From the UHGV virus genome UHGV-0229283: a DNA stretch of 64,000 nucleotides, one strand, 5' to 3'. This stretch comes from a virus. Below, in pieces: positions 2,480-15,707 of the stretch (positions are counted from its first letter, which is position 1; each line of letters starts with the position of its first letter). The position numbers and the translations under genes are program-made. The notes under the pieces are model-generated. The model did not search any database and was not told the DNA's origin. It saw nothing but the letters and a program-made list of their open reading frames with translations.

Positions 2480-3787
2480 CTAAAATTTTCCTGGGAATGT
2501 GTCTTTGTAGAATTTAACAATTCTTTGGTCTACGATAATATCACGTTCTTTAACCGGACGCAACAATCTTAAACCTTTTGTAGAAGTGGCCCTGCTAAAG
2601 GCAACATAGGCCATCCCAGGAGCAAAAGCTCCATAACCAAAGTCTATATTAACCTCTGGCAAAGTCAAGCCTTGAGCTTTGTGAATGGTCACTGCATAAC
2701 CAAGGCGAATGGGTAAGTTTGTGTATGTTCCAACAACAATCTTTTCCAATTCCTCTTCAGTCTTACCATTCTTGATAACCTTTCTTGGGAAGTATTCAAC
2801 ATTTTCCCAGACATTCTTTTCGATCTCTACAACCTTGCCGTCTTCCAGTTCTACATCTACCGAAAACTTCCTTAGGGCCTTGATAATACCCCGTGTTCCG
2901 TTTACAAATTTAGGACCGTCTTCATCTGGATTCTGATCATTAACGGTGATCATGACACGAGTCCCTACCTTGAGGTGTAGACTCTCAGCAACTGGACGCT
3001 GGGCAAAATCTCCTGTTTTGGAGGCTTTGTAAATAACCTCTTCACCCGGTATCTGATCGTAATGCTTTTTGTTGATACGTTCCGCCGCGGCATTAGTTGA
3101 AGTCAGGGTAATCGCATTCAGTGCTGCACCTTTTGAATAGCACTGATTGTTGAGGAATTTAACTATTTCATCAATACGCTCGCCTTTCCTCATATGATTC
3201 AACAACGATGAAAAATGCACACTGTTTTGACGATAAATCTTGTCAAGAAGTACAGGGTATGGATTTATCTCTCCCCAAGTGTCTGAGAAACACGATAATT
3301 CTGTGCTGTGGAGTTCGAAGTAAGCGTTTTCTTCAGAATCTGTCAGAACTGGAGGGTTCTGAAAGAAATCACCAAACATTATGACCTGAAGACCGCCGAA
3401 AGCTTTCTTAGGCTCCCTTCTCGCAACACGTAGTTTCTGATCCATTTCCCACAATTTGTCGGCTCGCACCATAGATATTTCATCAATAATGATACGCTCA
3501 AGAGATTTGCTTTTTAAAAGTTTTTTAGGTTTAGTTTTTACTGTCTTACCATCATTTTCTGTGGCTATCCCCATTGATAACCCGAAAGCTCGATGAGTTG
3601 TCATTCCATCAACATTAAGTGAAGCGACCCCTGTCGGGGCCACTGTTAATGTTGAACTTGGATACAGGGATTGGATTGTTTTGATCAGATGGCTCTTGCC
3701 ACTACCACCAGGTCCCGTAATGAAAACGTTTTTGCCTTCAATGATAGCACCTAAGGCCTCTTCCGTTCCCACTCCAAAATCAGACAT
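2480..3787 (-). CDS. SF1B DNA helicase, Dda/RecD/Pif1-like
   Basis: Walker A GPGGSGKSHL and Walker B IIDEISMV. At 435 aa it is close in size to T4 Dda. Confidence 0.75.
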   Translation of the reverse strand: MSDFGVGTEEALGAIIEGKNVFITGPGGSGKSHLIKTIQSLYPSSTLTVAPTGVASLNVDGMTTHRAFGLSMGIATENDGKTVKTKPKKLLKSKSLERIIIDEISMVRADKLWEMDQKLRVARREPKKAFGGLQVIMFGDFFQNPPVLTDSEENAYFELHSTELSCFSDTWGEINPYPVLLDKIYRQNSVHFSSLLNHMRKGERIDEIVKFLNNQCYSKGAALNAITLTSTNAAAERINKKHYDQIPGEEVIYKASKTGDFAQRPVAESLHLKVGTRVMITVNDQNPDEDGPKFVNGTRGIIKALRKFSVDVELEDGKVVEIEKNVWENVEYFPRKVIKNGKTEEELEKIVVGTYTNLPIRLGYAVTIHKAQGLTLPEVNIDFGYGAFAPGMAYVAFSRATSTKGLRLLRPVKERDIIVDQRIVKFYKDTFPGKF

Positions 3788-7720: not shown

Positions 7721-7750
7721 CAAATTAAAAGCCCCATTGCGGGGCTAAGA
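7721..7750 (-). terminator. rho-independent terminator after tnpB
   Basis: On the minus strand, AGCCCCGCAATGGGGCT is followed by TTTTAATTT immediately after the tnpB stop codon. Confidence 0.5.
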
Positions 7751-7760
7751 TGCTATAATT

Positions 7761-9014
7761 TTACTTATGGGTCAACCCCTTATTAAGGATATTTTTTGCA
7801 GCATTAATGTCTGCATTCTCAGTATGACCGCAAGAAATACATAAAAATTTAGCTTGTGTTTTCCTGTTTTCTTTTGATACATACCCACATCCAGAGCACG
7901 TCTGAGAGGTATATGCTGGATTAACAATCATTAACTCACTTCCGTACCTGATCGTTTTGTAAGCTAACTGCATACGTACCGAGTATAGACTCATATTTAG
8001 AATCTCTCGGTTAAGCCCTGTTTTAGCCTTCACATTTTTACCAGGCTGTTCAATCGTTCCTTTTGACGATTTCGTCATATTGGAAACTTTCAAATCTTCC
8101 AGAACAATTTTGTAGGATTTTGTAGCCAACTTTTTAGTAAGTTTGTGGCAGGCGTCTTGGCGAATACTCCCTTGTTTGGACTTGCGTACAGTGATCATTT
8201 CGCCAAGCTTTTTGTATCTTGCGCTGCCTTTCTGGCATTTGGCTTGCTTACGTTGAAGAATACGAATACGTTCTTCAAGAGCCTTTAACGATTCTTTAGG
8301 ATACTCCTCATGCCATGCTGTTTCACTATCTGAATCATAGCATGTTGCATACTGTGCAACACCTAAGTCAACACCAACACACATTTCCCTTTTATTAGAG
8401 ATCTGATAATAATCTTCGTCAGGTATTTCAAAGATGAAAGCAACATACCAGTCACCAGCAGTTTTGCTGAACGTGGTATTCATAAGTTTCCCATTCAGGA
8501 TACGTGCAGGTATCTTATCTCCCAGTTTCATCTTTCCAAGTCTGTTGTGGATGATGTAAGCCCCAACGTCATCAAGATTCTTTTCCTTTTTGAAGTCTGT
8601 ATTGCTTAATTTAAAACCTTTCCTGCGATGCTTTGATTGAAACTTGGGTCTGCCTCCAAGCTTTTTGAAGCATCGCTGCCATGCCTCTTTGAGGTCATAC
8701 TTTATAGCAAGCTGGCCAACACTACCGGGTATCCCATTTAACCATGTGTGGATTCCTGAGCCTAACATTACTCCAGATTTTGTTGGCTTTTTAAAACCGA
8801 GAGGGTATTTACCTTGGTTAAAAAATTTATCGTATTCATTTATTTTTGCCAATTTCCATTTTTCATCAGGAGATAGGGTTTCTTGGTCTATGAAACATAA
8901 CCCTAATGCATAATTAAAAGCATAACGTCTGGCGTTGCTCCAATGAAGAAGAGTGCTGTTTTGGCGATTATTTGTACCAACTTTTGTTTTAAAACCTACC
9001 ATCATGATAATCAT
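7761..9014 (-). CDS. tnpB: IS200/IS605-family TnpB (OrfB), RNA-guided nuclease-like; no tnpA partner
   Basis: Split RuvC motifs are present: GVDLG (I), VLEDL (II) and ADINAAKNI (III). A C-terminal zinc ribbon CSGCG...CISCGH follows. 417 aa. Confidence 0.85.
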   Translation of the reverse strand: MIIMMVGFKTKVGTNNRQNSTLLHWSNARRYAFNYALGLCFIDQETLSPDEKWKLAKINEYDKFFNQGKYPLGFKKPTKSGVMLGSGIHTWLNGIPGSVGQLAIKYDLKEAWQRCFKKLGGRPKFQSKHRRKGFKLSNTDFKKEKNLDDVGAYIIHNRLGKMKLGDKIPARILNGKLMNTTFSKTAGDWYVAFIFEIPDEDYYQISNKREMCVGVDLGVAQYATCYDSDSETAWHEEYPKESLKALEERIRILQRKQAKCQKGSARYKKLGEMITVRKSKQGSIRQDACHKLTKKLATKSYKIVLEDLKVSNMTKSSKGTIEQPGKNVKAKTGLNREILNMSLYSVRMQLAYKTIRYGSELMIVNPAYTSQTCSGCGYVSKENRKTQAKFLCISCGHTENADINAAKNILNKGLTHK

Positions 9015-9099
9015 CTACCTGCGCTGTTAAAGTTCATTCCGACAGTACCACACTACGTGAGGAACGTGATAGAATGGAGAGTTCGTGCATACAGTCCAG

Positions 9100-9247
9100 A
9101 GGTTATCCCCACATATTTTGGGGGCACCTGATATCTGTGATACGCTAGGAGGACTACATCGGTTTATCCCACATTGTGGGGAACACGGGCAGCGATTTGT
9201 AGCGATCCGGGTTGGCCTCGGTTTATCCCCACGCATGTGGGGAACAC
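9100..9247 (-). CRISPR. mini-CRISPR array with type I-E-like repeats, 3 repeats and 2 spacers
   Basis: The minus-strand repeat is GTGTTCCCCACATGCGTGGGGATAAACCG (29 nt). Repeats lie at 9219-9247, 9160-9186 and a degenerate terminal copy at 9100-9128. Spacers are 32 nt (9187-9218) and 31 nt (9129-9159). The degenerate repeat sits at the leader-distal end. Confidence 0.7.
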
Positions 9248-9463
9248 TCTAACCGTAAACATATGGCAACCTTAGTGTTTTAAGCCCACTTAAAATCTAC
9301 CGAGTTGTGTTCCCAAATTTGTAGAGATAGGAGCAAAGCTCCTGAAGGACTTATGCAACTAAGTTGCAGCCCCCTTCTTCCTTCATAGACTCGCTAATGC
9401 TTATCTCCAGAAGCATAACTTCGGCGTTAACCACACCTAGAGGATTGGCTCCCAACAAGAGAC

Positions 9464-9492
9464 ACTATACAGTGTCTCTTAATTGGAGTCAA
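9464..9492 (-). promoter_or_regulatory. sigma70-like promoter driving leader, array and tnpB
   Basis: Minus strand: TTGACT, a 17-nt spacer, then TATAGT. The perfect palindrome AGAGACACTATACAGTGTCTCT (9458-9479) overlaps the -10 and +1, so it may be an operator. Confidence 0.5.
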
Positions 9493-9538
9493 CAATTATT
9501 TTCTAAGAATATCCCCTGAAACTGTTTTCACATTACCT

Positions 9539-9730
9539 TCAATAAACTTCTGTTCTGGTCTCACCACTTTTAATGATCCTCGCTTTTTGGGCATGATAGA
9601 CAAACTGTTTGTTCTCTTTAACAAACTTTTTGCCCTGTTCTTCGTCTTCGAAAATCAAGGTATCACACTCGGTGAAAGAATGTCCAGGCCTTTTTTCAAC
9701 AGACCGCGTTGTGGCTACAATGAGGGACAT
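9539..9730 (-). CDS. hypothetical protein
   Basis: 63-aa ORF with a TAATG overlap to the RNA ligase gene. Confidence 0.45.
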   Translation of the reverse strand: MSLIVATTRSVEKRPGHSFTECDTLIFEDEEQGKKFVKENKQFVYHAQKARIIKSGETRTEVY

Positions 9731-10716
9731 TAGCCCTCCTCACTCAGACGAGTCATGTACCATGCACGAGCTTTGTTGCTGATAAACTTGCCAACATCTT
9801 TCATGGTCATGGAGCTGGCTTCCAGAACATCACCCTCTTCCTTGTTGATGTCTCGGTTAATCCACCCAATGAATTCACCGATCTTAGTCTTGTCAAGACC
9901 GACTTCGCTGACACCCTGCTCAAGACGTGCTTCCGTCACAGCGTACTCAACGAACTCACGCATACTTGCGAGGCGTTCTGGGTCGATTGCCGCCAGGGTC
10001 TTAACTTTGGATACAGAGTGTTTATCACCTTTGACTTTAAACCACAGGCCAGAGATTTTAGAAAGCTCAGGATCTTTTGGAGACCAGACAATGCCTTCAC
10101 CGATACCTTCTACGCCAAAGAACTTACCTGCCGGGCATTTGTTTTCCACTTCACGAGTCAGTTCTGCCAGGTCATTCTGGACAAGTTCCGGCTCATTGAA
10201 TGGGATATTAGCCATCCAGTAACCGAAGTCAAGGATACTGTAGATACGAGCATCCGGCAATCCAATTCCAAACTGGAACGTTGGTGGTAGCCAGTTGAGG
10301 GTATCCGTTGCCTCATCCCGTCCCACAGCCACACGGAAGATAGCAAAGAACGGCTCTACTTCAGTGATGGCAACACCTTTCTGAATGCCACGCCCAGCCC
10401 ATTCACCAGCAATTTCAACCGGGAACTGGAACTCGACGTCATTGACTTCACACAGGTATTTAACCTGTGAAAGCAACTCTGCGGTGTCTTTTCGAGACAT
10501 GAAGGCCGCGAAGCCATTGTTATCGTCGCCTACAGTCACGACACGCTCTTTGGACTGGAAGACAACTTCATCCTCAGAGTGGAATACCACACTGCCATTA
10601 GTGCCGTGAAGCTTAACCGTACCGATGTACGGGATCAGGTACGCTTCCGGTGGCAACACCTTTCGCTTGATATTACCCTCTTCATCAATACCGTCGAACG
10701 TCAGTTTATCATGCAT
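9730..10716 (-). CDS. RNA ligase, Rnl2 family
   Basis: Nucleotidyltransferase motif I is KLHGTN (T4 Rnl2 has KIHGTN). The start is set at MHDKLTF so the lysine sits at the T4-like position. An alternative longer start lies at 10821. Confidence 0.6.
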   Translation of the reverse strand: MHDKLTFDGIDEEGNIKRKVLPPEAYLIPYIGTVKLHGTNGSVVFHSEDEVVFQSKERVVTVGDDNNGFAAFMSRKDTAELLSQVKYLCEVNDVEFQFPVEIAGEWAGRGIQKGVAITEVEPFFAIFRVAVGRDEATDTLNWLPPTFQFGIGLPDARIYSILDFGYWMANIPFNEPELVQNDLAELTREVENKCPAGKFFGVEGIGEGIVWSPKDPELSKISGLWFKVKGDKHSVSKVKTLAAIDPERLASMREFVEYAVTEARLEQGVSEVGLDKTKIGEFIGWINRDINKEEGDVLEASSMTMKDVGKFISNKARAWYMTRLSEEG

Positions 10717-13985: not shown

Positions 13986-14363
13986 TTATTTATCCACCCA
14001 TACGCGATTTTCATCACACCAATCATAAAAATCTTTCATGATGTCGTTGAATTCCCGCAAGGGTGTATAATGGCGAATAGGATCAGCATCATACCCCTCA
14101 TTTTCACATTCTGCAATAGAGGCTAGCCAATCCGGGTATGTTGGAACATCCCGGAAATAGCCAATTATATCACACAGCTCATAATCGCAGCCATTATCCC
14201 AGTTGTCGTAGTTTGACTCGCGAGGGAATTTCCGTTCAAGACGGCGGGCTATCTCTTTAGCAAGCTCATGCACCGTTTTATCTGTCCAGTCTTCCCGACC
14301 ACATTCACCACTCCGCTTATCCCAGATGTCGCGGAGGTCCAGAGTTGTTTTCCAGTTAGGCAT
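13986..14363 (-). CDS. hypothetical protein
   Basis: The ORF-track start is GTG. The start is moved to MPNWKTT, which has an AAGGAGAGG Shine-Dalgarno. Confidence 0.45.
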   Translation of the reverse strand: MPNWKTTLDLRDIWDKRSGECGREDWTDKTVHELAKEIARRLERKFPRESNYDNWDNGCDYELCDIIGYFRDVPTYPDWLASIAECENEGYDADPIRHYTPLREFNDIMKDFYDWCDENRVWVDK

Positions 14364-14514
14364 TGTTCCTCTCCTTATATCTTCCTCGCCAAGGGCCGAA
14401 ACGCCCACATTTTAGACATTCCCAGCTGCGTTGCCCGTAAATGATGATCTTGCCGATTTCTTTATTTCGACAATTTGGGCAAGAGTATACTATCTTACCA
14501 CCTTTAGACAGCAT
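14356..14514 (-). CDS. zinc-ribbon mini-protein (52 aa)
   Basis: Unlisted ORF MLSKGGKIVYSCPNC...CLKCG with an AAGGTGA Shine-Dalgarno. It is translationally coupled to both neighbours. Confidence 0.35.
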   Translation of the reverse strand: MLSKGGKIVYSCPNCRNKEIGKIIIYGQRSWECLKCGRFGPWRGRYKERNNA

Positions 14515-14995
14515 TTTTCACCTTCCTCAACTCGAATTCATCGCCATAGCCTATCATATGGCCTTTGGCCGTGATCACCTTTTCTCCAAACACACTGCCA
14601 GTGCATTTACCAATGAAAACTTCTGGCATATCTTCTTCTGAAAGAAGAATATCCACAGTAAATTTACCATGATAGTGCCTTGCGTTGTAATGCGGCCCTT
14701 CATCATCTGTTTTATACCAGTATTTACCATTCCAGCGGTATTTGTTATGCCTGTACCATACATATGACCCCCAGGTGTCTTGTGCTATATGGTCCACTTT
14801 GGTAGTAATAAGTCGGCCTGTATTACGAAGTAGCTCGTCATATTGCTTTTCGTAAACTTCCACACGATTTTTCATACTGTTGTAATAGTTCTGGTAACGA
14901 TCAGCTCTGTTGACCATAACCCTGAGAAGGTTCTCAATAGGCGTACCTTTCTCAAGATGTTCTTCATAAAGTTGTTGACTTGTTTTGCTTTCCAT
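14504..14995 (-). CDS. hypothetical protein
   Basis: The start is moved to MESKTSQQ, which has an AAGGAGA Shine-Dalgarno at a 7-nt spacing. Confidence 0.5.
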   Translation of the reverse strand: MESKTSQQLYEEHLEKGTPIENLLRVMVNRADRYQNYYNSMKNRVEVYEKQYDELLRNTGRLITTKVDHIAQDTWGSYVWYRHNKYRWNGKYWYKTDDEGPHYNARHYHGKFTVDILLSEEDMPEVFIGKCTGSVFGEKVITAKGHMIGYGDEFELRKVKNAV

Positions 14996-15015
14996 ATCAA
15001 ATCTCCTTAAGAAAT

Positions 15016-15201
15016 TCATGACAAATACCATTTAAAACCACAGTTCGGGCAACAAGGTTCCTTAATCCGAAGCTGATCGGGGGCCTTTACAGGAGCATCT
15101 TTCAGGTTATAAGTCGAAAAACATCTCGCACATACTACAACCTTGTCAGGAATTTCCATTTCGAACCAAGGAAGGCCATTTAATTTTTTCGTAATGATCA
15201 T
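15016..15201 (-). CDS. zinc-ribbon mini-protein
   Basis: 61 aa with CARC...CCPNCG. ATGA overlap with the upstream gene. Confidence 0.45.
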   Translation of the reverse strand: MIITKKLNGLPWFEMEIPDKVVVCARCFSTYNLKDAPVKAPDQLRIKEPCCPNCGFKWYLS

Positions 15202-15707
15202 AATGTAGCCAACATGTTGATCGCTTCGTGGTGTTCTTTCATCTTTGTCAGACGAAGATACATGTCATGATACTTACGGACACGTAACAAATCCTTATCT
15301 GTCAGGCCTTTCAGGCGACGAACATCAGAGTTATGGCGCAGGTCTGCAAGCTTCACACGTACCGCATCATAGTTTTGGGCCAGGCGGTTAAAATACTCTT
15401 CCGGTGTCTGATTAGGGGTTTTCGTCAGAAGAACCACAGCATCCTTCACACGGTTCGAGAAGCCTAGCAGAACCAGATCCGCAGCGGTAACATCGGTGTC
15501 TTCAACCACATCATGAAGCGCGGCGATAGCCATAAGCTGAAAATCATCGGTCTTCAGGTAGTGCATTACCTTCAGCGGATGAAGGATGTACGGGTTACCA
15601 CCCTTATCTTTCTGATTCAGGTGGCCTTCTGCTGCAATTTTAATTGCTAAAGCAAGTTCTTGGGCCGGACTTAAAGCTTGAATACAACTCTTGTCTGTTG
15701 ATACCAT
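15198..15707 (-). CDS. HD-domain (p)ppGpp hydrolase-like protein (SpoT/RelA HD, small alarmone hydrolase)
   Basis: HLNQKDKGGNPYILHP...LHDVVEDT match the SpoT HD-domain signature. AGAGGAAG Shine-Dalgarno. Confidence 0.65.
   Translation of the reverse strand: MVSTDKSCIQALSPAQELALAIKIAAEGHLNQKDKGGNPYILHPLKVMHYLKTDDFQLMAIAALHDVVEDTDVTAADLVLLGFSNRVKDAVVLLTKTPNQTPEEYFNRLAQNYDAVRVKLADLRHNSDVRRLKGLTDKDLLRVRKYHDMYLRLTKMKEHHEAINMLATL

What the first reader, a model, noticed from the sequence alone, without database searches (positions are those of the whole stretch)
9100..9500. Phage-borne mini-CRISPR array with type I-E-like repeats and its own regulated promoter
Three 29-bp repeats read GTGTTCCCCACATGCGTGGGGATAAACCG on the minus strand. 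They share the I-E architecture: a GTGTTCCCC 5' end, a 6-bp stem with a 4-nt loop, and an ATAAACCG 3' handle. They alternate with 32- and 31-nt spacers, which is exactly I-E spacer length, and the leader-distal repeat is degenerate as in genuine arrays. About 210 nt upstream on the same strand is a TTGACT-17-TATAGT promoter whose -10 is buried in a perfect 22-bp palindrome, a likely repressor operator. There is no cas gene in the window. This fits a phage hijacking the host Cascade and Cas3 to target competitors or host defences.
Basis: seen in the sequence. Interest (0 to 1): 0.8.

Follow-up and report, generated by a model that had tools for sequence, protein, structure and literature searches.

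The report
Phage TnpB-like nuclease with borrowed CRISPR array
The mini-CRISPR array is real, but it most likely supplies guides to a small RNA-guided nuclease gene lying right beside it in the phage, so it looks like a compact phage weapon against rival mobile elements rather than a hijack of the host's Cascade.

Summary
The array is real. On the minus strand lie one exact 29-nt type I-E repeat (9247..9219) and two decayed copies, separated by two 32-nt spacers. A strong sigma-70-type promoter sits 217 nt upstream. The identical repeat forms chromosomal arrays beside a complete I-E cas operon in Erwinia.

A 417-aa TnpB/Cas12-type nuclease gene (9014..7761) starts about 90 nt after the last repeat, and its catalytic residues are intact. 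Promoter, leader, array and nuclease travel together as one roughly 1.76-kb module, found in at least three phage groups and always with different spacers.

The 5' part of the "leader" is a structured RNA. One hairpin loop (GGUU) pairs with repeat positions -5 to -2 (AACC). This pairing covaries across units (GAAA:UUUC, AGUU:AACU, GAUU:AAUC), as in TnpB/Cas12n guide RNAs. The last ~60 nt resemble genuine I-E leaders.

Spacer 1 matches a small integrative Klebsiella element 32/32, next to an AAG PAM. A 40%-identical Vibrio homolog has the same scaffold, a 10-repeat array and I-E-type Cas1-Cas2, but no Cascade within 10 kb.

Best reading: a phage-borne type V-like system that uses I-E-format arrays. 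I found no published description in the library searched. All functional steps are inferred from sequence.

The parts
7747..9510 (-). Whole mobile module: promoter, scaffold RNA, I-E-type leader, mini-array, tnpB-like gene and terminator. It is absent from the closest relatives.
   Evidence: Homology to Klebsiella phage KB57 ends at window 7746 and resumes at 9511/9543. The same module is present in Salmonella phage KE23, Klebsiella phage KP13-16 and metagenomic phage contigs L004, L017-L020, L031 and L038.
9464..9492 (-). Sigma-70-type promoter: TTGACT, 17-nt spacer, TATAGT
   Evidence: 10 of 12 positions, best in region. Conserved in all close-clade upstream units.
9457..9480 (-). Palindrome AAGAGACACT-GTAT-AGTGTCTCTT overlapping the -10. 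Possible operator; function not established.
   Evidence: The arms change in a mirrored way in L019, and the 4-nt centre is inverted in L004.
9307..9458 (-). Structured scaffold RNA (tracrRNA/omega-RNA-like 5' module of the 'leader')
   Evidence: Highly conserved across phages whose spacers all differ. RNAalifold predicts 28 pairs, 20 of them keeping pairing through changes on both sides. Window MFE z-score is -2.25. Homologous scaffolds accompany every unit of the family, upstream or downstream of the nuclease gene.
9423..9437 (-). Scaffold hairpin GG-UGUGGUUAACG-CC. Its loop GGUU (9432..9429) is complementary to repeat positions -5 to -2 (AACC); proposed pseudoknot.
   Evidence: the pseudoknot helix pairs in 95% of cells, all 4 pairs change on both sides, the presenting stem pairs in 100% of cells with GC-to-CG swaps, and 0 of 500 shuffles reach the observed values; the exact complement sits at the same loop position in 17 of 18 units (GGTT, GAAA, AGTT, GATT, CCAT).
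9307..9314 (-). GGGAACAC, complementary to the repeat 5' end GTGTTCCC (candidate anti-repeat that would close the leader into a loop)
   Evidence: Invariant in the close clade. The duplex is better than with shuffled repeats in this clade, L020d and L043d, but not in 8 other units. This is weak, clade-limited support.
9248..9306 (-). I-E-type CRISPR leader proper (repeat-proximal ~60 nt)
   Evidence: Aligns with the leaders of the Erwinia sp. OLFS4 and Pantoea I-E arrays (TCGGTAGA ... AAAAC.CT ... ATT-CA ... TTAGA|GTGTTCC).
9219..9247 (-). Repeat 1, exact I-E repeat GTGTTCCCCACATGCGTGGGGATAAACCG
9187..9218 (-). Spacer 1, AGGCCAACCCGGATCGCTACAAATCGCTGCCC
   Evidence: 32/32 match to K. pneumoniae pKP-2683-1-6.5 (NZ_CP122577.1 2853-2884) with a 5'-AAG flank. 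Near matches in K. oxytoca and Leclercia plasmids and in an IMG/VR contig also carry AAG.
9160..9186 (-). Repeat 2 (27 nt; two bases lost in the stem-loop, 3' handle ATAAACCG intact)
9128..9159 (-). Spacer 2, ATGTAGTCCTCCTAGCGTATCACAGATATCAG (no target found)
9101..9127 (-). Repeat 3, degenerate terminal repeat GTGCCCCCAAAATATGTGGGGATAACC
7761..9014 (-). 417-aa TnpB/Cas12n-like RNA-guided nuclease gene (probable start ATG at 9005)
   Evidence: Pfam OrfB_IS605 and Cas12f1-like_TNB. RuvC D/E/D and CxxC..CxxC are intact and conserved in 31 homologs. Best PDB sequence hit is RdCas12n 9J09 at 3e-37, against ISDra2 TnpB at 1e-17. AF2 model has pLDDT 87, and the best fold matches are TnpB 8H1J/8IAZ and Cas12f.
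7730..7746 (-). Intrinsic terminator hairpin after the nuclease gene

Best explanation
The feature is the guide-RNA locus of a compact, phage-encoded, TnpB-derived (type V-like, Cas12n-like) CRISPR system whose arrays are in type I-E format.

Proposed mechanism, with the basis for each step:
1. The promoter at 9492..9464 drives one transcript. It contains a ~150-nt structured scaffold (tracrRNA/omega-RNA-like), an I-E-type leader, the repeat-spacer units and probably the nuclease mRNA. (Inferred.)
2. The scaffold folds. (Covariation shown.)
3. A scaffold hairpin loop (GGUU) pairs with the last bases of a repeat (AACC) just 5' of the spacer. This positions the spacer as the 3' guide, as in TnpB, Cas12n and Cas12f. 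(Pairing shown by covariation; its role inferred by analogy.)
4. The 417-aa nuclease has an intact RuvC site. It would cut DNA matching the spacer next to a 5'-AAG-type motif. (Inferred.)
5. The targets are rival mobile elements in the host: small integrative or satellite-like elements, phage-plasmids and competing phages. (Matches shown; effect inferred.)
6. The phage has no cas1 or cas2. The repeats, leader, 32-nt spacer length and AAG motif are all of I-E type. New spacers are therefore probably inserted by the host's I-E Cas1-Cas2. (Inferred.)
7. In sister loci, a second unit downstream of the nuclease carries a single repeat followed by the element's own flanking DNA. That gives an omega-RNA-style guide against the element-free allele, which implies homing. 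The window's lineage has lost that unit.
For: (1) Linkage. Promoter, scaffold, array and nuclease gene co-occur in every close homolog examined, in three phage groups and at different insertion sites. The scaffold and repeats are conserved while all spacers differ.

(2) Array turnover. The near-identical phage contig L031 has an extra repeat-spacer unit between the window's S1 and S2. L017 has an extra spacer relative to KP13-16 and L018.

(3) The nuclease looks active. The RuvC triad and zinc finger are intact and conserved, and the model has a TnpB/Cas12f fold.

(4) Scaffold structure. 20 of 28 RNAalifold pairs keep pairing through changes on both sides.

(5) Pseudoknot covariation. The scaffold loop pairs with repeat positions -5 to -2 as GGTT:AACC, GAAA:TTTC, AGTT:AACT and GATT:AATC. 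Pairing holds in 95% of cells and 0 of 500 shuffles reach the observed values. The same kind of pseudoknot is described for Cas12n, TnpB and Cas12f (PMC12216341; bioRxiv 10.1101/2025.01.20.633832).

(6) The Vibrio agarivorans homolog (40% identity) has nuclease, scaffold, a 10-repeat I-E-like array, Cas1 and I-E-type Cas2. It has no Cascade, Cas3 or Cas6e within 10 kb.

(7) Protospacer 5' flanks are AAG three times, AGG once and GGG once. One AAG belongs to a flank-derived guide that no adaptation machinery selected. That points to the effector's own motif. AcCas12n prefers AAG (PMC12216341).

(8) Phage L020 carries two scaffold-plus-array units, one for each Klebsiella I-E repeat family, each with a matching pseudoknot loop.

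(9) Precedent. Cas12r of Thermus Lalka phages is a phage TnpB-like nuclease with I-E-like 29-bp repeats and 32-33-nt spacers. Its authors propose host I-E adaptation as the source of spacers.
Against: - There is no expression, processing or cleavage data. Every functional step is inferred from sequence.
- The pseudoknot covariation rests on three independent variant events. A fourth, L021d, depends on a repeat boundary I chose. L043d is offset by one base.
- The anti-repeat duplex is not general.
- In the window, R2 and R3 are decayed and the unit downstream of the nuclease is missing, so this particular copy could be partly degenerate.
- Only 5 protospacers were found, 2 of them without AAG. 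Window S2 has no known target.
- The repeats keep everything Cas6e and Cascade need, so use by the host effector is not excluded.
- The nuclease is not clearly inside the Cas12n clade. Its full-length similarity to ordinary enterobacterial InsQ/TnpB (198 bits) exceeds its half-length hit to RdCas12n (132 bits).
Confidence: 0.7

Rival explanations
1. First reader's model. The array is a stand-alone I-E mini-array. Host Cas6e processes its crRNAs and host Cascade-Cas3 uses them to destroy competitors. The neighbouring TnpB gene is irrelevant to the array, or the crRNAs are shared between host Cascade and the phage nuclease.
For: - The repeat is identical to genuine I-E repeats, with the Cas6e hairpin and both handles intact in R1.
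- Spacers are 32 nt and the PAM is AAG.
- Klebsiella carries I-E systems with related repeats.
- Virus-borne mini-arrays that rely on host effectors are known (established knowledge; reviewed in PMC11656645, listed).
Against: - This model does not explain the strict linkage to the nuclease gene.
- It does not explain the conserved structured scaffold, or the covariation between the scaffold loop and the repeat 3' end.
- The Vibrio relative has no Cascade, Cas3 or Cas6e near an otherwise complete locus.
- The stem-loop sequence matches Erwiniaceae rather than the Klebsiella I-E repeat.
- R2's hairpin is damaged in the window.
Confidence: 0.15
2. RNA anti-CRISPR or regulatory decoy. The repeat-bearing transcript sequesters host Cas6e or Cascade subunits (Racr-like), or acts as a crRNA-like regulator that silences host immunity. 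It would not guide cleavage.
For: Phage-encoded repeat mimics that inhibit CRISPR-Cas (PMC10651486) and phage crRNA-like regulators (bioRxiv 10.1101/2024.10.29.618823) are described. The repeats here are good I-E mimics expressed from a strong promoter.
Against: - Racrs are solitary repeats. Here full-length 32-nt spacers turn over between near-identical phages and match mobile elements at 30-32 of 32 positions with AAG flanks.
- The scaffold-repeat covariation and the nuclease linkage are not explained.
Confidence: 0.05
3. Decaying relic. The module was once functional, but in this phage it is inert cargo with two damaged repeats, a lost downstream unit and no mobility.
For: R2 lacks 2 nt, R3 is degenerate and there is no downstream unit. 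No flank-derived guide was found after R3.
Against: - The nuclease ORF is intact with all catalytic residues.
- The promoter, scaffold, pseudoknot loop, R1 and the 3' handles of R1 and R2 are intact.
- S1 matches a circulating Klebsiella element perfectly.
- The same R2 deletion pattern is conserved in KE23, KP13-16 and L004, so it is tolerated rather than recent damage.
- A degenerate terminal repeat is normal for arrays.
Confidence: 0.1

Closest known systems
Cas12n (type V-N, formerly V-U4), e.g. RdCas12n and AcCas12n
   Same: - Compact TnpB-like effector; it is the best solved-structure sequence hit (9J09, E=3e-37).
- A long scaffold RNA (~170 nt) plus crRNA.
- A pseudoknot between the last repeat bases and the 5' part of the scaffold.
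- A-rich 5' PAM (AAN; AAG for AcCas12n) (PMC12216341).
   Different: - The window protein is 417 aa and aligns to RdCas12n only over residues 169-411. Clade membership is not established.
- Here the scaffold and array lie upstream of the gene with their own promoter, rather than overlapping the ORF's 3' end.
- The repeats and leader are of I-E type.
- The system is carried by lytic enterobacterial phages rather than by Actinobacteria.
Cas12r-CRISPR of Thermus Lalka phages (bioRxiv 10.64898/2026.04.20.719267)
   Same: - A phage-encoded TnpB-derived nuclease with a short array.
- 29-bp repeats that share elements with the host I-E repeat, and 32-33-nt spacers.
- A PAM overlapping AAG.
- No adaptation genes in the phage; host I-E adaptation is proposed.
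- Spacers target integrative elements.
   Different: - Cas12r is 564 aa, from a thermophile-specific TnpB branch.
- Its array lies downstream of the gene.
- No tracrRNA was detected.
- The system here has a conserved scaffold RNA with pseudoknot covariation, true I-E repeats and leaders, and in sister loci a flank-derived single guide.
TnpB-omegaRNA (IS200/IS605 OMEGA) and TranC intermediates
   Same: - TnpB fold and size.
- In relatives (L038, L021) a scaffold downstream of the gene ends in one repeat followed by flanking DNA as the guide. That guide matches the element-free allele next to AAG, which is the omega-RNA and homing logic (PMC13565253).
- Fixed guides and array guides coexisting echoes TranC, described in PMC13565253 as a transposon-CRISPR intermediate.
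   Different: - No TnpA and no recognisable IS ends in the window.
- The guide source is an array of acquired spacers.
- The scaffold is a separate transcription unit upstream of the gene.
- The terminal scaffold element is an I-E CRISPR repeat.
Type I-E CRISPR-Cas arrays (Enterobacterales)
   Same: Identical repeat (Erwiniaceae), homologous leader, 61-nt period, 32-nt spacers and AAG PAM.
   Different: No Cascade, Cas3, Cas6e, Cas1 or Cas2 genes in the module. A structured RNA is fused upstream of the leader. The array is obligately linked to a class 2-type nuclease.
Phage ICP1 type I-F CRISPR-Cas against the PLE satellite; viral mini-arrays
   Same: A phage-encoded CRISPR system whose spacers hit satellite-like or integrative elements of the host. 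The ICP1/PLE comparison is from established knowledge.
   Different: ICP1 carries a complete class 1 system with its own adaptation genes. Classical viral mini-arrays have no effector. This is a single small effector with a borrowed array format.

Membership tests
Type I-E CRISPR array | 29-nt repeat of the I-E family with the Cas6e hairpin and an 8-nt 5' handle | tested here: met
   The exact repeat occurs in Erwinia, Pantoea and Izhakiella arrays. The Erwinia array lies beside a full I-E operon.
Type I-E CRISPR array | I-E-type leader adjoining the first repeat | tested here: met
   About 60 nt align with the Erwinia and Pantoea I-E leaders. This is similarity only; integration activity was not tested.
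Type I-E CRISPR array | 32-nt spacers acquired next to an AAG PAM | tested here: met
   S1 and S2 are 32 nt. The 5' flanks are AAG for 3 of 5 protospacers in the family, AGG for one and GGG for one.
[quoted passage not shown] | Cascade (Cse1, Cse2, Cas7, Cas5, Cas6e) and Cas3 encoded with the array | tested here: not met
   No such genes flank the module in the window or in any of the phage loci. None lie within 10 kb in the Vibrio relative.
[quoted passage not shown] | crRNAs processed by Cas6e and loaded into Cascade | not testable with these tools
   Needs RNA-seq or northern blots with and without cas6e, and Cascade pull-down.
Type V CRISPR-Cas (TnpB-derived Cas12) | Single effector with a RuvC D-E-D triad and a TNB zinc finger | tested here: met
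   GVDLGV, LEDL, NADINAA and CxxC..CxxC are present. D216, E306 and D402 are conserved in 31 homologs. The model has a TnpB/Cas12f fold.
Type V CRISPR-Cas (TnpB-derived Cas12) | Evolutionarily conserved association of the effector with a CRISPR array | tested here: met
   An array or single-repeat unit is present in every homolog locus examined, from 94% down to 40% identity.
Type V CRISPR-Cas (TnpB-derived Cas12) | Scaffold or tracrRNA that pairs with the repeat 3' end (pseudoknot) | tested here: met
   Covariation is seen, and the scaffold stems are supported. This is comparative evidence only.
Type V CRISPR-Cas (TnpB-derived Cas12) | RNA-guided DNA cleavage by the effector | not testable with these tools
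   Needs interference and cleavage assays.
Cas12n (type V-N) | Effector falls within the Cas12n clade | tested here: inconclusive
   It is the best PDB sequence hit (9J09, 132 bits) but only over the C-terminal 60%. Ordinary InsQ/TnpB proteins score higher over the full length. No reference phylogeny was available.
Cas12n (type V-N) | tracrRNA overlapping the 3' end of the effector ORF, with the array downstream | tested here: not met
   In the window the scaffold and array lie upstream with their own promoter, and only a terminator follows the gene. Downstream units do exist in relatives L018-L021, L038 and L042-L044.
Cas12n (type V-N) | 5'-AAN PAM | tested here: inconclusive
   3 of 5 flanks are AAG, one AGG and one GGG. 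The sample is too small and there is no depletion assay.
IS200/IS605 TnpB-omegaRNA transposon | Omega-RNA at the 3' end of tnpB whose guide is the transposon-flanking DNA | tested here: not met
   Absent in the window. Present in relative L038, where the guide is colinear with the FKP3 phage backbone.
IS200/IS605 TnpB-omegaRNA transposon | TnpA transposase and/or IS ends with subterminal hairpins | tested here: not met
   No further ORF with a transposase domain lies within the module. IS ends were not searched for systematically.
RNA anti-CRISPR (Racr) / solitary repeat unit | Solitary repeat without functional spacers | tested here: not met
   There are two full spacers, one with a perfect target, and spacers turn over between phages.

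The most novel reading that the evidence does not exclude
A cross-class hybrid. A 417-aa phage-borne TnpB-derived nuclease uses arrays in authentic type I-E format. The host's class 1 adaptation machinery (Cas1-Cas2 acting on an I-E leader) would write spacers that a class 2-type phage effector reads. Different scaffold-plus-array units are tuned to different host I-E repeat families. Sister elements keep an omega-RNA-style flank guide for homing next to arrays of acquired spacers. That would make the family a living intermediate of the TnpB-to-Cas12 transition, used by lytic Klebsiella, Salmonella and E. coli phages against satellites and rival elements.
Probability: 0.45. Interest if true: 0.9.

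Novelty: new variant of a known kind. Interest (0 to 1): 0.78.

Why it matters
- **How phages could obtain adaptive targeting cheaply.** They would carry one small nuclease and one RNA scaffold and borrow the array format of the host's commonest CRISPR type. They would probably borrow its spacer-writing enzymes as well.
- **Evolution of CRISPR effectors.** The same scaffold serves fixed flank-derived guides and arrays of acquired spacers within one family. That makes the long-discussed step from transposon omega-RNA to CRISPR arrays directly testable.
- **Phage ecology.** The targets point to warfare between lytic phages and satellite-like elements in clinically important Enterobacterales. This matters for phage therapy cocktails.
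- **Possible tool.** A 417-aa nuclease with an apparent AAG motif and a defined natural guide architecture is a candidate compact genome editor.
- **Annotation.** Current annotation calls the gene "transposase" or "hypothetical protein" and does not mark the array.

Tried and rejected
- **Rfam.** A scan of 8500-10000 at E<=10 found nothing meaningful, including no CRISPR-DR or omega-RNA family.
- **Window spacers against phages.** No hits, so the window's spacers do not target module-free relatives such as KB57.
- **Window S2.** No target in phages, plasmids, E. coli genomes or IMG/VR.
- **Second batch of 19 spacers, including 9 from Vibrio.** No plasmid hits and only one phage hit.
- **Sequence between R3 and the nuclease start as a flank-derived homing guide.** No match in phages.
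- **Self-targeting or extra copies within the window.** None found.
- **General anti-repeat pairing with the repeat 5' end.** Significant only in the window's clade, L020d and L043d, so I do not claim it as a family feature.
- **Cas12 hacker / Cas12p.** Rejected as the family: 500-700 aa, 37-nt repeat, GTN PAM, and only a weak PDB match.
- **Fold search to separate Cas12n from TnpB.** Uninformative, because the 9J09 model lacks the nuclease lobe.
- **First fuzzy-regex script.** It timed out and was replaced by BLAST.
- **Exact-pattern scans of IMG/VR and metagenomes with the scaffold core.** These added only L029-L031.
Full report
**1. What is in the sequence**

All features below are on the minus strand.
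- Promoter: TTGACT (9492..9487), 17-nt spacer, TATAGT (9469..9464). It matches 10 of 12 positions and is the best match in the region.
- Palindrome: AAGAGACACT-GTAT-AGTGTCTCTT (9480..9457), overlapping the -10 hexamer.
- Leader: about 210 nt.
- Repeat R1 (9247..9219): the exact 29-mer GTGTTCCCCACATGCGTGGGGATAAACCG.
- Spacer S1 (9218..9187): 32 nt.
- Repeat R2 (9186..9160): 27 nt, with two bases missing from the stem-loop.
- Spacer S2 (9159..9128): 32 nt.
- Repeat R3 (9127..9101): degenerate.

The corrections are that R2 and R3 are not 29-mers and that S2 is 32 nt, not 31.

The repeat is a bona fide type I-E repeat. The identical 29-mer forms arrays with a 61-nt period in Pantoea, Erwinia and Izhakiella. 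In Erwinia sp. OLFS4 the array adjoins Cse1, Cse2, Cas7, Cas5, Cas6e, Cas1 and Cas2.

**2.

About 90 nt downstream of R3, on the same strand, is a 417-aa ORF (9014..7761).
- Pfam assigns it to OrfB_IS605 and Cas12f1-like_TNB.
- Its RuvC triad (GVDLGV, LEDL, NADINAA) and CxxC..CxxC zinc finger are intact. They are conserved in 31 homologs.
- Its best solved-structure sequence hit is Rothia Cas12n (9J09, E=3e-37). ISDra2 TnpB scores 1e-17.
- An AlphaFold model (pLDDT 87) matches TnpB and Cas12f folds best.

So the window does contain a candidate effector gene.

**3. The array and the nuclease form one mobile module**

The window comes from a Klebsiella Mydovirus-type phage, about 98% identical to KB57, KpS8 and Mydo. 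Those relatives lack the segment from about 7747 to 9510.

The same promoter, leader, three repeats and nuclease gene occur in other phages:
- Salmonella phage KE23 (Seunavirus);
- Klebsiella phage KP13-16 (Stephanstirmvirinae), inserted among tRNA genes;
- phage contigs L004, L017, L018, L019, L020, L031 and L038.

Across these loci the promoter, leader and repeats are conserved while every spacer differs. The near-identical contig L031 has one extra repeat-spacer unit between the window's S1 and S2. This is how a genuine, turning-over CRISPR array behaves.

**4. The leader has two parts**

*Repeat-proximal part.* The last ~60 nt (9306..9248) align with genuine I-E leaders of Erwinia and Pantoea.

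*Upstream part.* The preceding ~150 nt form a structured RNA. RNAalifold predicts 28 pairs on 16 units, and 20 of them keep pairing through changes on both sides. Homologous scaffolds accompany every unit of the family, whether upstream or downstream of the nuclease gene.

*The key test.* In Cas12n, TnpB and Cas12f, the last repeat bases before the guide form a pseudoknot with the 5' part of the scaffold (PMC12216341; bioRxiv 10.1101/2025.01.20.633832). Here a small scaffold hairpin (9437..9423) presents the loop GGUU, which is complementary to repeat positions -5 to -2 (AACC).

Where the repeat differs, the loop differs to match:

| Unit | Scaffold loop | Repeat -5 to -2 | Note |
|---|---|---|---|
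| Most units | GGUU | AACC | |
| L020 upstream | GAAA | UUUC | its repeat belongs to the second Klebsiella I-E repeat family |
| L041a | AGUU | AACU | |
| L023 | GAUU | AAUC | |

On an unbiased MAFFT alignment the pseudoknot helix pairs in 95% of cells. All four of its pairs change on both sides. The presenting stem shows GC-to-CG swaps. None of 500 shuffles reaches the observed values. In 17 of 18 units the exact complement sits at the same loop position.

Caveats:
- The number of independent events is small, at three clean ones.
- L021d depends on a repeat boundary that I chose.
- L043d is offset by one base.
- A second pairing, GGGAACAC at 9314..9307 with the repeat 5' end, is supported only in the window's clade and two other units.

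**5. A complete chromosomal relative**

In Vibrio agarivorans a 40%-identical homolog is followed by:
- a ~250-nt scaffold and a leader;
- ten I-E-like 29-nt repeats with 32-nt spacers;
- Cas1 and I-E-type Cas2 (PF09707);
- a second TnpB/Cas12f-like gene.

No Cascade, Cas3 or Cas6e gene lies within 10 kb. In this lineage the I-E array format therefore goes with a class 2-type effector. That argues that the I-E-like repeats reflect the adaptation module, not Cascade.

**6. Targets and PAM**

| Spacer or guide | Match | Target | 5' flank |
|---|---|---|---|
| Window S1 | 32/32 | 6.5-kb circular K. pneumoniae element (serine recombinase, Xis-like HTH, primase-helicase) | AAG |
| Window S1, near matches | 25/25 to 31/32 | K. 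oxytoca and Leclercia plasmids, one IMG/VR contig | AAG |
| KP13-16 S2 | 32/32 | 120-kb capsid-encoding Klebsiella "plasmid" | GGG |
| L004 S1 | 30/32 | ~12-kb island at tRNA-Thr (integrase, major capsid gene) in 36 E. coli chromosomes | AAG |
| L017 S2 | 30/32 | the same E. coli island, about 790 bp away | AGG |
| L038 downstream guide | 32/32 | Klebsiella phage FKP3 | AAG |

The targets are satellite-like or integrative elements, a phage-plasmid and rival phages. The S1 near matches are homologous copies of the same site, so they are not counted separately. Three of five independent flanks being AAG is far above the 1/64 expected by chance. AAG is both the I-E acquisition motif and the preferred PAM of AcCas12n.

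**7. An omega-RNA-style guide in sister loci**

Several relatives carry a second scaffold unit downstream of the nuclease (L018, L019, KP13-16, L020, L021, L038, L042-L044).

In L038 this unit has a single repeat. The 32 nt that follow it are the phage's own flanking DNA. They are colinear with Klebsiella phage FKP3 over 180 nt. In FKP3, which lacks the module, this sequence is preceded by AAG.

This is the TnpB logic in which the guide is the flank and the nuclease cuts the empty allele. It implies homing during co-infection (concept reviewed in PMC13565253). No adaptation machinery selected that guide, so its AAG flank points to the effector's own motif.

The window's lineage has lost this unit. 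Only a terminator follows the gene, and no flank-type guide was found after R3.

**8. Interpretation**

The best-supported reading (confidence about 0.7) is a phage-borne, TnpB-derived, type V-like system. A scaffold RNA and an I-E-format mini-array would guide the adjacent nuclease against rival mobile elements. Spacers would probably be supplied by host I-E Cas1-Cas2.

*Shown by comparison:*
- the array is genuine;
- it is linked to the nuclease gene;
- the catalytic motifs are intact;
- the scaffold structure and the pseudoknot covary;
- the leader and repeats are of I-E type;
- spacers match real targets.

*Inferred:*
- transcription and RNA processing;
- cleavage and the PAM;
- adaptation by the host;
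- an anti-satellite role;
- operator function of the palindrome.

The Cascade-hijack model (about 0.15, or dual use) is not excluded, but it does not explain the linkage, the scaffold or the Vibrio locus. The decoy and relic models are less likely (sections 3, 4 and 6).

**9. Relation to known systems and novelty**

Closest known systems:
- Cas12n (type V-N) has the same RNA architecture and PAM type, but membership is unproven and the locus layout differs.
- Cas12r of Thermus phages shares the ecological logic and the I-E-like repeats, but it is a different protein branch, has no tracrRNA, and its array lies downstream.
- TnpB-omegaRNA and the TranC intermediates.

The TnpB/Cas12 survey reports about 40 independent array recruitments, with arrays almost always downstream. 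It never mentions I-E, and it excluded loci whose arrays were linked to non-type-V systems. Full-text searches found no description of this enterobacterial-phage system. GenBank annotates the gene as "transposase" or "hypothetical protein" and leaves the array unannotated.

I rate it a new variant of a known kind. It is of high interest because it links class 1 adaptation format to a class 2-type effector, and because fixed omega-type guides and acquired-spacer arrays appear side by side in one family.

Noticed in passing
window 9457-9480; L004 and L019 promoter regions: The promoter palindrome seems to be under selection of its own. In L019 the arms change in a mirrored way (GGTACT..AGTATC). 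In L004 the 4-nt centre is inverted (ACTATACAGT against ACTGTATAGT), which turns the -10 from TATAGT into TACAGT. It could be an operator or a flip-prone element.
   Followed up: partly
L020 (2060-2530 and 3790-4200); L041 (455-1510 and 2760-2901): Some phages carry two or three scaffold-plus-array units around one nuclease gene. Each has a different I-E-like repeat variant and a matching pseudoknot loop. L020 has one unit for each of the two Klebsiella I-E repeat families.
   Followed up: partly
L045 (Vibrio agarivorans) 8815-9801 and 14129-15649: The chromosomal relative's locus also holds a second TnpB/Cas12f-like gene (506 aa) after cas2, and a 328-aa ORF with no Pfam hit just upstream of the effector. 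The island is flanked by resolvase, recombinase and transposase genes.
   Followed up: no
L030 (Ga0208609_102496): This locus has the same promoter and the first ~130 nt of the scaffold. The locus is then interrupted by a different IS605-type tnpB, so one IS has inserted into another RNA-guided module.
   Followed up: no
window 9496-9624 and 9511-9543: Relative to KB57, the window has also lost the two small genes KB57_243 and KB57_244. Only a 33-nt remnant of the KB57_244 3' end remains, just upstream of the module's promoter.
   Followed up: partly
L048 (E. coli NZ_CP029747.1 684-697 kb): A ~12-kb island at tRNA-Thr carries an integrase, a major capsid gene, a 715-aa protein and a DUF6945 protein. 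It is present in 36 of 5,426 complete E. coli genomes and is hit by spacers from two different phages. It looks like a capsid-encoding phage satellite.
   Followed up: partly
L046/L047 against L038: In module-bearing L038 the module replaces a ~870-bp stretch that in FKP3 holds tRNA-Met, tRNA-Leu, tRNA-His and small ORFs. Only the right junction is precise, at the guide start. This is a replacement rather than a simple insertion.
   Followed up: partly
L050 (IMGVR_UViG_3300022856_000270) 3133-3152: The first 20 nt of window S1 match exactly in an unrelated 5-kb viral contig, but the remaining 12 nt do not match and there is no AAG flank. This is probably chance or a conserved gene fragment.
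   Followed up: no
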